Assembly (NCBI RefSeq): GCF_022045235.1
Contig: NW_027266330.1
Span: 4,154,001 to 4,218,000 of the forward strand
Direction: 5' to 3'
DNA: 64,000 nucleotides
Source of the DNA: Haliotis cracherodii
Taxonomy: Eukaryota
In this document: piece by piece, positions 31,218 to 36,373 of the stretch
How positions within the stretch are numbered: position 1 is the first letter of the stretch
Layout of the letters: each line of letters opens with the position of its first letter
Program-made: the position numbers and the translations under genes
The notes under the pieces: generated by a model
Told to the model about the DNA's origin: nothing
What the model saw: the letters and a program-made list of their open reading frames with translations, nothing else
Databases searched by the model: none

Positions 31218-34200
31218 CTGCAATGGAGACAAGAGTGAGTGAGTGAGTATGGTTTTTACGCCGCCTTTAGCAATATTCCAGCAATATCGCGTCGCGGGAA
31301 ACCAGAGATGAGTACCGCTTTAACCACTAGGCTAACCGCTCGTCCCCAATGATGACAAATATATATATATTCTACTGTCTCTACAAAAATAACAGAATGT
31401 TTTAATCTCACATGAGCCTTAATTTATCACATCGGATCACCTTAACGCCCGAAGCGACTAAGGTAAATATGATCCATCTGTCCGTGCTGTTCGTTAGCTG
31501 TTTGCAGTTACTTGTTTACTACATCAAATACGACCCGCGAAGATCCGGGTTAGAACAAGTCTTCAACAACCCATGCCTAAAGTAAAAGGCGACTATATTT
31601 GTCGTAAGAGGTGACTAACGGGATCGGGTGGTAAGGCTCGCTGACTTGGTTGATGCATGTCATCGAATCCCAGTTGCGTGGATCGATGCTCATCTAGTCA
31701 ATCACTGGATTGTCTGGTCCAAACTCGATTGTATGCAAACCGCCGACATATATTACTGAAATGTTGCTGAGAGCGGCGTTATATAAGAACAAACAAACAT
31801 TAAATACACCTAAACACAAGAAAGAGTTTACCTTTCGGGCCTTTGATCTTGACAGCCAGCTGCCCGGCCCCCGCCCCGTGGGTGTCCACCAGGAATTTGC
31901 TCTCGTATATCTGTATTAAGCCATCGTCCAGCCCGGGCCCGAAGACCTTCACCTTGGACGGGTCCGGGGGCTCCCCAACACGGAGCACAAACGGACTACC
32001 TACAAGTGTTGAATGGCTTCAGTGGTGGTTCTCTTCGTTTATGTTTTTTTTATGGATTGTTCGGTCATCATATTCAACGCTCCAGATAACTTTTGAGCAA
32101 TAGAGTTCTTACTCGAAGGTTCCTGTTTTAATTGGGTTATTACATTTTTCATTGGTTAACCAATATTTTTTCACTCATGAATTCATCACGCTATTTGTTT
32201 TTCCTTAAATTGAGTAAACATTTTGAGATTTCGAAACAAATTAAACAATGTTTTAGCTCCGTTGTACGCATGCCGAAAAGGCTTCATTTGGTATTTACGC
32301 GTGCTGTTTTAATAATTTGAGTTTTTTAGTTAATGCATGAGTTTCTGTACCCAAGTGAATTGAAAGTAATTGGGGTTTGAATATGTTTTTGGGTATTTTA
32401 CGCAAATACGTAACTCTGCAGTCTGTAATTCCGCCACACCCACCTGGCACTGTCTCCCCGTCATAGCGGATCTGAAGCAGATGTTTCTCGGCGTCGACAG
32501 GTGTCACCCTCACTGTAGACAGTCCTCCGCCGTCGTCCTTGACGTCACAGTTCAAACCCGTGCGTACTCCCGTGCACGTTGCAGTTATCTCCCCTGTGGG
32601 TGACATGACACATTACATTCCAGACTGTTATACATCTCGAGTATATATAAATATGAGAAACTACCAGTATATCAGCTTCATCCTTTATGGATATATACTC
32701 ACAAAAGCGGTTAAAAGCGGCGTAAAACCTAACTCACTCACTCACTGTAGAACCAGCTGAATATCACACAGCCGTATTACTGATGTCGTGACTTACCTGG
32801 ACCTGCTTCCTTTGTGTTGACAAGAAACGTGAGTACTTGTCCCGCTATTCCCCCTCGCAGACCCTCCCCGGTCACCTTGACCTTGTTGACGTTTCCTTTC
32901 GGGGTCACTGTGATCTTGAACGGACATCCGGGCACTAGGTCATCTGACCAATACACGTAGAGCAGGAAACCACCTGGGAGAATAATGGCGACTGAAGTAT
33001 CGTAACATCATCAACAAATGATGGAGAGAGTGTGTCACATTGAATTTATACATTAAAAGCTCACAGAACACATACGTACGTTATTATTTATATTTAAATT
33101 ATTATTCCACTATAACAATGTAACCTCTAAGGATCCAAAGAAACCATTTTGTATTTTACTCTTCTGATTAACTAAGGAAAACAGGTAACTGAAACTAAGG
33201 ACGCACGTTTGTTGTTCCTGATATCACTTTACCTGGGAGTGGCGATGTGTAGGTACATCTGTACCGGTCGTACTTGATGGGTTTCATCTCCACCTCCAGG
33301 TTGTCGCGGACACCCTGCATCCGTACCCTGCACACACCTGCAACACACACGTGTCATGTACCATACACCTGCAACACACACGTGTCATGTACCACACACC
33401 TGCAACACACACGTGTCATGTACCACACACCTGCAACACACACGTGTCATGTACCACATACCTGCCACACACCCACGTGTCATGTACCACACACCTGCAA
33501 CACACACGTGTCATGTACCACACACCTGCCACACACAAACGTGTCATGAACCACACACCTGCAACACACACGTGTCATGTACCACACACCTGCAACACAC
33601 ACGTGTCATGTACCACACACCTGCAACACCCACGTGTCATGTACCGCACACCTGCAACACCCACGTGTCATGTACCACACACCTGCAACACACACGTGTC
33701 ATGTACCACACACCTGCAACACACACGTGTCATGTACCATACATCTGCAACACACACGTGTCATGTACCGTAAACCTGCAACACCCACGTATCACGTACC
33801 ACACACCTGCAACACACATGTGTCATGTACCGTAAACCTGCAACACACACACTTCATGTACCACACACCTGCAACACACACGTGTCATGTACCGTAAACC
33901 TGCAACACACACACTTCATGTACCACACACCTGCAACACACACGTGTCATGTACCGTAAACCTGCAGCACACACACTTCATGTACCACATACCTGCAACA
34001 CCCACGTGTCATGTACCACACACCTGCAACACACACGTGTCATGTAACACACACCTGCAGCACATACGTGTCATGTAACACACACCTGCAGCACACACAC
34101 TTCATGTACCACACACCTGCAACACACACGTGTCATGTACCACACACCTGCAACACACACGTGTCATGTACCGTAAACCTGCAACACACACGTGTCATGT

Positions 34201-36373
34201 ACCACACACCTGCAACACACACGTGTCATGTACCGTAAACCTGCAACACACACGTGTCATGTACCACACACCTGCCACACACACGTGTCATGTAACACAC
34301 ACCTGCAACACCCACGTGTCATGTACCACAAACCTGCAACACACACGTGTCATGTACCACACACCTGCAACACACACGTGTCATGTACCACACACCTGCA
34401 ACACCCACGTGTCATGTACCACACACCTGCCACACTTACACGTGTCATGTACCACACACCTGCCACACACACACGTGTCATGTAACACACACCTGCAACA
34501 CCCACGTGTCATGTACCACAAACCTGCAACACACACGTGTCATGTACCACACACCTGCAACACACACGTGTCATGTACCACACACCTGCAACACACACGT
34601 GTCATGTACCACACACCTGCCACACTTACACGTGTCATGTAACACACAACTGCCACACACCCACGTGTCATGTACCACACACCTGCAACACCCACTTGTC
34701 ATGTACCACACATCTGCAACACCCACGTGTCATGTACCACACACCTGCAACACACACGTGTCATGTACCACAAACCTGCAACACCCACTTGTCATGTAAC
34801 ACACACCTGCAACACACACGTGTCATGTACCACACACCTGCAACACACACGTGTCAAGTAACACACACCTGCAACACAAACGTGTCATGTACCAAACACC
34901 TGCAAAACACACGTGTCATGTAAAAAACACCTGCAACACACGTGTGTCATTTACAACACACCTGCAACGCGCACCCGTGTCATGTACCACAAACACCCAT
35001 AACAACATATGCAGGTGTCATATGTCACACACCTCGAAGCTAAAGAATGCTCGAAATGAGACATGAGTTCCATTCAAATACCACTACTGGCACAATGTCA
35101 CCCCTGTAGCTGCAGGTATATATAGTAGAGATTATCATAACACTCAGCGATGTAATTGTGGTAACCGAGTGACACTGACCAGGTCCCGCCTTCTTCCCAT
35201 CCACGACGAACTCCGCAGGTACAGTGGCCCTCGCCGACTCCGCCCCGTGCCCCACAATGTTCACCTTGGTCACGTCGACCGGCAGGGTGGGCCCAGGGCA
35301 GTAGGCCAGCAGGGGAGACCACTCCAGCGGCGCGTCAGACCAGTAGATGTTGATGTAGTGGTCACCTTACAACAATGAAACAATGTGTGTTAGAACAACA
35401 CAGAGTATATTACCCCAGTGCTGTGTCTTGAAGTGGGATGTTTGGTTGATATATTGTCAATCTCATTCAAATCAGATCTTAGATCTGGCTACCGCTAAAC
35501 AAAGATCTGAGGACATCCCACTAGGGGTCACGTCAGAACGACCTTTCATCCGACCAATCAGAGCGTCGCTTACCAGATCATGAAAGTGACAGTCGGAATG
35601 TGATTTCTAAACACGGGGTACTCCGAACGATAGTTACGGGCTTAACTGAATCCATACAATCTGGACCATCTATTAGCCATACCAGAATGTCTTTTGTTCA
35701 GGTTTCGTATTTGTAATCGAGAATTTGTCAAAATATGTTTCGAAGCGAAGTCGCCAATTTGAAATGAGTGCCGTAAAGCACGAGAAAGCTGCCTTCTGAT
35801 TGGCTGATGTCAACTTCTTGTCAGTCATTCGGTTGGTCGGTCAAAGTTCGCGCAAGGTCGGTCTGACGTGATGCGTAATGGGATGTCCTCAGATCTGTGT
35901 TTAGTGGCAGCGAGAATTAAGATTTGATTTGAATGAGATTGACAATATATTGTATTAAGATGGAACATAGCTTGTGTATACAGTTGTTCACAATAATGAT
36001 GATGATGATGATGATGATGATGATAATAATAACTGTCATGAGACACTTTAGACGATAATAAAAAGGTTTGTAAAACACATTATGGGATCCAATGCCAGAT
36101 TCGGCTTGATGACGACGATTGGTGTGACATTACCCCTGCTTGTGTGTTCACGTGTTTCACGTATATAACTGCTTGTTGTTACCCTGCCTTGTGCTCTGCA
36201 TACAGGAGAATATAAAAGGACTGGTCGGATCAGAGTCAGTGTACTGTGTCCGAGTGGGGTATTCATGTTAAACTGGGGCATGGTGTCTCAGTGGACTGGC
36301 ACTATAGTTCGGCATTAGTCCGAACTAACTAGCAGAAGCAGACACGCACGCACGCACGCACGCACGCACGCAT

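What the first reader, a model, noticed from the sequence alone, without database searches (positions are those of the whole stretch)
33331..35000. The true acceptor is the last of about 54 near-identical 3' splice sites
Seen: about 1.67 kb of a 1.84-kb intron is the unit gtacatgacacgtgtgtgttgcag|gtgtgtg. Only the final copy gives the in-frame GVCRVRMQG. Upstream copies add 31n nt, and even n=3 brings the unit's TGA into frame. Established: a scanning model favours the first AG after a branch point, so strong exon definition or stepwise re-splicing (each unit is CAG|GT) is needed here.
Basis: partly seen in the sequence, partly recalled or inferred. Interest (0 to 1): 0.7.

Follow-up and report, generated by a model that had tools for sequence, protein, structure and literature searches.

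The report
Splice-acceptor "mirage" in abalone filamin
An intron of an abalone filamin gene ends in 53 head-to-tail copies of its own splice signal and only the last copy gives an intact protein, so this is likely a tolerated repeat of a kind already known from lancelets, whose spare signals are likely ignored rather than used step by step.

Summary
A 31-nt minisatellite (33331-34991, minus strand) fills 90% of the 1,842-nt intron 16 of a Haliotis filamin-A-like gene. Its unit is the last 24 intron bases plus the first 7 bases of exon 17, and its exact form occurs only here in G000. All 52 upstream acceptors lead to a stop codon. The last one gives the junction found in 15 of 15 aligned mollusc homologs. 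No RNA junction sequence was seen, so use of the last site rests on protein homology. This is a lancelet-type "mirage". Scanning is not violated, because every unit carries its own branch-point-like motif. The last copy is likely chosen by exon definition, probably helped by silencer-like motifs in each next unit. Re-splicing is neither needed nor supported, and predicted RNA structure does not single out the true site. The scan has already noted mirages elsewhere in this genome and in other animals (unchecked notes), and this gene has a second, diverged one. It is ordinary as a feature but useful as a natural minigene for 3' splice-site choice.

The parts
30982..64000 (-). Filamin-A-like gene (calponin-homology domains plus filamin repeats): coding exons 2-21 lie in the window, exon 1 lies just beyond base 64000
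   Evidence: A 20-exon model with AG/GT ends matches RefSeq model P0022 at 1016 of 1017 residues, and exon 1 is found in L011; Pfam gives Filamin x8 and CH x3
35180..35365 (-). Exon 16 (186 nt), ending in phase 1 with donor CTG|GTCAGT
   Evidence: one contig in each of 4 of 4 runs laid covers 35178-35368 and goes on at both ends
33338..35179 (-). Intron 16, 1,842 nt
33331..34991 (-). Mirage minisatellite: 53 units of 31 nt (6 spacings of 33), each 24 nt of intron end plus 7 nt of exon start; 30 distinct variants; most degenerate at the intron-side edge
33331..33361 (-). Last unit, the authentic acceptor (AG at 33339-33338), identical to the commonest variant; branch-point-like A at -17; pyrimidine tract tied for weakest of the gene's 20 acceptors (8 of 17)
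33233..33337 (-). Exon 17 (105 nt, phase 1-1, so skipping keeps the frame), with donor CAG|GTAAAG
34986..35032 (-). Possible decayed extra unit at the intron-side edge
   Evidence: seen by eye in the output; not scored
36595..36998 (-). Second, diverged mirage at the acceptor of exon 15 (36608): 40-nt unit, 9 upstream copies with AAG|A in place of CAG|G
   Evidence: 15-18 of 20 identical on the intron side and 9-10 of 14 on the exon side

Best explanation
A 31-nt piece spanning the intron 16/exon 17 boundary is repeated 53 times, likely by local slippage and unequal crossing-over, and the spliceosome likely still joins exon 16 to the last copy because only that copy is followed by real exon sequence and the nearby exon 17 donor, so the array is likely tolerated neutral DNA. 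Shown: the array, its unit, its restriction to this locus, and that only the last acceptor keeps the frame and matches homologs. Inferred step 1: growth began from a GTGTGTG microhomology and ran into the intron, because copies on that side leave exon 17 intact. Inferred step 2: all copies are weak acceptors, so commitment depends on exon definition, which favours the copy nearest the exon 17 donor and any exon enhancers. Inferred step 3: each decoy is followed by another unit carrying motifs (TTGCAG, TGTGTT, a donor-like CAG|GT) of the kind that suppress an intron-proximal acceptor in human reporters, while exon 17 lacks the first two. Inferred step 4: rare decoy use gives premature stops, and those mRNAs would be degraded.
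For: Junction without insertion in 15 of 15 aligned homologs and in RefSeq models of 3 Haliotis species. 52 of 52 decoys give stops. The unit is found only at this locus. Variant units cluster along the array (p 0.005 and 0.008, variants picked after seeing them), as expected from local turnover. The pyrimidine tract is weak, the exon 17 donor is strong and each unit has a branch-point-like motif. The next unit holds TTGCAG for 42 of 52 decoys and TGTGTT for 37 of 52, against 0 in exon 17; both suppressed the intron-proximal 3' site in human 293T reporters (PMC1877881, passages). One contig in each of 4 runs (1 study, RNA by guess) runs on for 512-1,092 nt past the donor side, whereas 50 of 52 decoy mRNAs would hold repeated 31-mers that tend to break such contigs (weak inference). 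Lancelet mirages do not disturb regular splicing (PMC3087553, PMC3902484, passages).
Against: No junction sequence from RNA was seen, so use of the two nearest decoys or skipping of exon 17 is not excluded by the contigs, and contigs drop rare forms. The RefSeq proteins are computed models, and P0022 may have been built on this same DNA. Exon size alone does not exclude the three nearest decoys: they would give 136, 167 and 198 nt, inside the gene's 66-214 nt range. Duplicated globin acceptors were used at the proximal copy in one early study and the opposite in another (as cited in PMC1557585, Discussion). The silencer data come from human cells, and TTGCAG is itself part of the acceptor. No enhancer in exon 17 was tested.
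Confidence: 0.72

Rival explanations
1. Leaky rheostat: the nearest decoys, or skipping of exon 17, take a real share of splicing, so that copy number tunes filamin output through mRNA decay or an isoform 35 residues shorter.
For: The three nearest decoys give normal-sized exons. Exon 17 skipping is in frame. The true acceptor is weak. An intronic minisatellite varies in copy number in another abalone (PMC6905558, passages). The share of minor forms was not measured.
Against: All 4 members of the Haliotis cluster include exon 17 with the plain junction. Lancelet mirages gave no aberrant mRNA (PMC3902484, passage). Every decoy product carries a stop, which offers little to select for.
Confidence: 0.15
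2. Recursive ladder: exon 16 is spliced to an internal unit, the junction regenerates a donor, and further rounds reach the last acceptor.
For: 50 of 53 units read AG|GT. The regenerated donor (-5.8 kcal/mol in 27 of 52 decoys) is not far from the real exon 16 donor (-6.9). Weak regenerated sites can work in flies when unprotected (PMC8184009, passages).
Against: The intron is 1.8 kb, against a mean of about 50 kb for fly recursive introns (PMC8184009, passage). The nearest decoys leave 31-62 nt, too short or marginal for an intron (recalled limit). The regenerated donor is weaker than its competitors. The same donor is regenerated at the true exon, where its use would skip exon 17. The exon junction complex suppresses such sites (PMC8184009, passages; PMC8605326, Discussion).
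Confidence: 0.07
3. Unit-to-unit RNA pairing hides the decoys and leaves only the last acceptor open.
For: Neighbouring units are predicted to pair; three units fold at -32.6 kcal/mol (no shuffle control).
Against: The true site is not predicted to be more open: it ranks 30, 9, 43 and 12 of 53 on four accessibility measures.
Confidence: 0.03
4. The array length is an assembly error and the real array is much shorter.
For: No DNA reads were laid on it.
Against: There are 30 distinct variants among 53 units, with clustered diagnostic variants and a decayed edge.
Confidence: 0.03

Closest known systems
Amphioxus 'mirage' minisatellites (Adh3, globins BflGb6 and BflGb9, troponin C, PGBD5); PMC3087553 and PMC3902484, passages read. 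The original Adh3 paper (PMC117041) is not held and is known here only through those citations.
   Same: Tandem copies of a gene's own intron end plus exon start, with the authentic site at the exon-side end (as in BflGb6). The unit size is within the reported 10-160 nt. Variants are homogenised locally. The spare AG/GT signals are apparently unused.
   Different: It is in a mollusc. It has 53 copies against 3-6 in BflGb6 and fills 90% of the intron. The unit has only 7 exon bases. The authentic unit equals the commonest variant, whereas the globin boundary units were excluded from homogenisation. No RT-PCR or haplotype data are available here.
Human F7 intron 7 37-bp VNTR; PMC1557585, abstract and Discussion read
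   Same: A minisatellite whose terminal unit spans an exon-intron boundary. The identical pseudo-sites are silent, the exon-side copy wins, and RNA structure did not explain the choice.
   Different: It is a donor array of 5-9 copies, and its pseudo-sites were shown by mutation to be functional; this one is an acceptor array of 53, untested.
Recursive splice sites (ratchet points) of Drosophila; PMC8184009 passages, PMC8605326 abstract and Discussion
   Same: A juxtaposed AG|GT that can regenerate a donor after splicing.
   Different: Ratchet points are conserved sites in very long introns; here there are 52 copies 31 nt apart in a 1.8-kb intron, with no intermediate seen.

Membership tests
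Mirage minisatellite | Minisatellite-like tandem repeat | tested here: met
   Period 31, 53.1 copies, 89% matches
Mirage minisatellite | Unit spans an intron/exon boundary of the host gene | tested here: met
   24 intron plus 7 exon bases; likeness to the exon stops after +7. The 7-mer also occurs inside the unit, so the unit's edges are somewhat ambiguous.
Mirage minisatellite | The terminal copy is the authentic boundary | tested here: met
   It is the only open frame and matches 15 of 15 aligned homologs without a gap
Mirage minisatellite | Unit is local, not a dispersed satellite | tested here: met
   18 of 18 and 24 of 24 exact matches in G000 lie in this array; diverged copies elsewhere were not searched
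Mirage minisatellite | Spare sites do not disturb regular splicing | tested here: inconclusive
   Protein models and contig continuity fit, but no junction letters were seen
Mirage minisatellite | Length instability between haplotypes or tissues | not tested
   One assembly only; no DNA reads laid
Recursive splice site | Acceptor directly followed by a donor (AG|GT) | tested here: met
   50 of 53 units
Recursive splice site | Lies in a long intron | tested here: not met
   1,842 nt against a mean of about 50 kb (PMC8184009, passage)
Recursive splice site | Site conserved between species | not testable with these tools
   No genome of a related mollusc is held (no relatives)
Recursive splice site | Intermediates or lariats seen in nascent RNA | not testable with these tools
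   Only assembled contigs were listed

The most novel reading that the evidence does not exclude
The array is an active part of splicing. Exon 16 is often joined first to an internal unit and rescued by re-splicing from the regenerated donor, or decoy use scales with copy number. A slippage-born minisatellite would then work as a recursive ladder or an allele-length rheostat for filamin, and by extension for the many mirage-bearing genes of abalone.
Probability: 0.12. Interest if true: 0.72.

Novelty: new member of a known kind. Interest (0 to 1): 0.25.

Why it matters
As a feature it is ordinary: one more mirage, of a size the scan has noted before. Its value is as a test object. Seventeen decoys are identical to the true acceptor from -24 to +7, so the choice cannot lie in the core signal. 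A minigene series could separate exon definition, self-silencing by the next unit and re-splicing for 3' sites, as F7 did for 5' sites. With 3 of 11 arrays in this gene reaching into an exon edge, it also adds to the case that junction-born repeats are common in abalone; six searches of the paper library found no report of them in molluscs.

Tried and rejected
Sequencing runs: no RNA holder listed (24 rows, all RNA by guess, contigs only). In one search the bins flanking exon 16 (35000-35159, 35384-35447) have no cover, which is not counted as evidence. A dispersed repeat at 35448-35950 filled the loose-end table, so the letters after the donor were not among the rows shown. Which acceptor the contigs join therefore stays open. 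The share of words held and the contig lengths cannot tell inclusion of exon 17 from skipping, because the 3' UTR length is unknown.

RNA structure as the discriminator was rejected. TDP-43-type repression was considered: UG density is 0.23 in the array against 0.09 in exon 17, but 64 of 71 runs are only (UG)3, short by my recall, and I saw only a search listing on it, so it remains a weak lead. Other AGs between the donor and the exon end give no open frame apart from the skip-equivalent one. Pseudo-exons inside the array: 349 are possible at 50-300 nt, 118 are in frame and 2 are open; none was seen.

Script slips: one search used an acceptor index off by 2 and an exon 18 start off by 1; the outcomes quoted come from the corrected. 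One search's pattern missed 3 units, which were caught.

Alignment A1 holds 15 of the 20 hits. Left out were four short fragments (P0010, P0011, P0012, P0014; P0011 and P0012 diverge right after the donor position, probably reading into their intron) and P0004, which has the plain junction but departs later.

Paper searches with no mollusc mirage found; the library lacks most subscription journals. No supplements were read; those of PMC3087553 (unit alignments) may bear on the comparison.

Full report
Host gene. The window holds a filamin-A-like gene on the minus strand. The exon upstream of the array finds a Haliotis asinina filamin-A-like protein at 87% identity and other mollusc filamins at 55-77% (20 hits among 36 candidates). 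The cluster of that protein holds RefSeq models of H. asinina, H. rufescens and H. cracherodii. A 20-exon model with AG/GT ends matches the last of these, P0022, at 1016 of 1017 residues, and exon 1 lies just beyond the window. P0022 may have been built on this same DNA, so it is not independent evidence. Pfam finds 8 filamin and 3 calponin-homology stretches. The array lies in intron 16.

Observation. The array spans 33331-34991 with period 31 and 53.1 copies, in an intron of 1,842 nt. It has 53 unit acceptors, spaced 31 nt (46 times) or 33 nt (6 times), and 50 of 53 are followed by GT. Eighteen copies, the true one included, are identical from -24 to +7. Likeness to the exon stops after 7 bases. 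All 52 upstream acceptors lead to a stop codon: 35 by frameshift and 17 in frame. The last acceptor gives the junction seen without a gap in 15 of 15 aligned homologs (15 of the 20 hits were aligned) and in the models of three Haliotis species. Exon 17 is 105 nt and phase 1-1, so skipping it keeps the frame.

Origin. The exact unit (18 matches) and its intronic part (24 matches) occur only in this array in G000, so the repeat was likely born at this junction. There are 30 distinct variants. Two diagnostic variants cluster along the array (p 0.005 and 0.008, chosen after seeing them). The five units farthest from the exon differ more from the true unit than the rest do (3.6 against 1.8 differences). 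This fits slippage and unequal exchange, and it argues against an assembly error, though no DNA reads were laid. The same gene has a second, diverged example at the exon 15 acceptor and a 3-copy 14-mer across the exon 9 acceptor. In all, 3 of 11 arrays with a period of 10 or more reach into an exon edge, against about 0.034 per array by a simple null (P about 0.005 for 3, or 0.05 for 2; the focal array is among them, so this is not an unbiased test).

RNA. Four runs of one study, RNA by guess and held as contigs, were laid on the donor side. In each, one contig covers 35178-35368, which is exon 16 plus 2-3 bases that fit either side, and runs on for 512-1,092 nt past the donor. The letters past the donor were not among the rows shown, so the junction was not seen. 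An mRNA using any of 50 of the 52 decoys would hold repeated 31-mers, which tend to break such contigs. That is a weak hint against those decoys as the main path. It says nothing on the two nearest decoys, on skipping or on rare forms.

Mechanism. Each unit carries a branch-point-like TGAC with its A at -17, so scanning from the last unit's branch point ends at the last AG (-17 is slightly close by my recall of typical spacing). The open question is which unit is committed. The core signal cannot decide it, and predicted structure does not: the true site ranks 30, 9, 43 and 12 of 53 for openness. The acceptor has a pyrimidine tract tied for weakest in the gene (8 of 17) and exon 17 has a strong donor, which points to exon definition (inferred). 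Size alone is not enough, since the three nearest decoys would give exons of 136-198 nt, within the gene's range. A second layer is likely self-silencing. The next unit holds TTGCAG for 42 of 52 decoys and TGTGTT for 37 of 52, while exon 17 has neither. These motifs and donor-like elements suppressed the intron-proximal 3' site in human reporters (PMC1877881, passages); transfer to abalone is an inference. Against this reading, early globin duplications gave proximal use in one study and the opposite in another (PMC1557585, Discussion). Recursive splicing is possible by sequence but poorly supported. The intron is short and the nearest steps would be 31-62 nt. The regenerated donor is weaker than its competitors (-5.8 against -8.8 and -9.1 kcal/mol; crude energies against a recalled U1 end). 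The same donor is regenerated at the true exon. The exon junction complex represses such sites in flies (PMC8184009, passages; PMC8605326, Discussion).

Comparison. Tandem copies of an intron/exon boundary are described in amphioxus as 'mirages', with units of 10-160 nt and no effect on regular splicing (PMC3087553, passages; PMC3902484, passage). The human F7 intron 7 VNTR is the donor-side counterpart (PMC1557585, abstract and Discussion). Four structural features of a mirage were met here, silent splicing was inconclusive and instability was not tested. The name came to me from earlier notes of this scan, and I checked it in the papers. Those notes list further cases in this genome and in other animals; none lies near this finding, and I did not check them. 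Six searches found no paper on mirages in molluscs, within a library that lacks most subscription journals. An intronic 27-nt minisatellite of varying length is reported in H. discus hannai, without a splice-site claim in the passages read (PMC6905558).

Verdict. The feature is real and is a new member of a known kind. Best explanation 0.72: a tolerated mirage whose last copy is picked by exon definition, likely with self-silencing. Leaky rheostat 0.15, recursive ladder 0.07, structure 0.03, assembly error 0.03. Interest 0.25.

Noticed in passing
window 36595-36998 (-): A second, diverged mirage at the acceptor of filamin exon 15: 40-nt unit, 9 upstream copies with AAG|A where the real site has CAG|G.
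   Followed up: partly
window 41913-41950 (-): A 14-nt unit in about 3 copies straddles the acceptor of exon 9 (41922); it may be a mirage at its earliest stage.
   Followed up: partly
window 44955-47461 (-): A 22-nt array of 112 copies ends about 20 nt before the acceptor of exon 5; the junction is not part of its unit.
   Followed up: partly
window 17143-18046 (+): A 35-nt unit in 25 copies with a donor-like AAG|GTAGG; the first copy closes an open 32-residue frame at 17061-17156. It is a candidate donor-type mirage in another gene; the exon was not verified.
   Followed up: partly
window 61494-62621 (-): A 23-nt unit in 50 copies carries a donor-like CAG|GTGAGA but lies inside intron 1 of the filamin gene, with no coding exon of the model next to it.
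   Followed up: partly
window 35448-35950: A dispersed repeat in intron 15 that draws thousands of contigs per run at 90-99% likeness; its family was not identified.
   Followed up: no
window 37314-37460 (-): Filamin exon 14 encodes an acidic stretch between filamin repeats that is 92-96% identical among the Haliotis models; not examined further.
   Followed up: no
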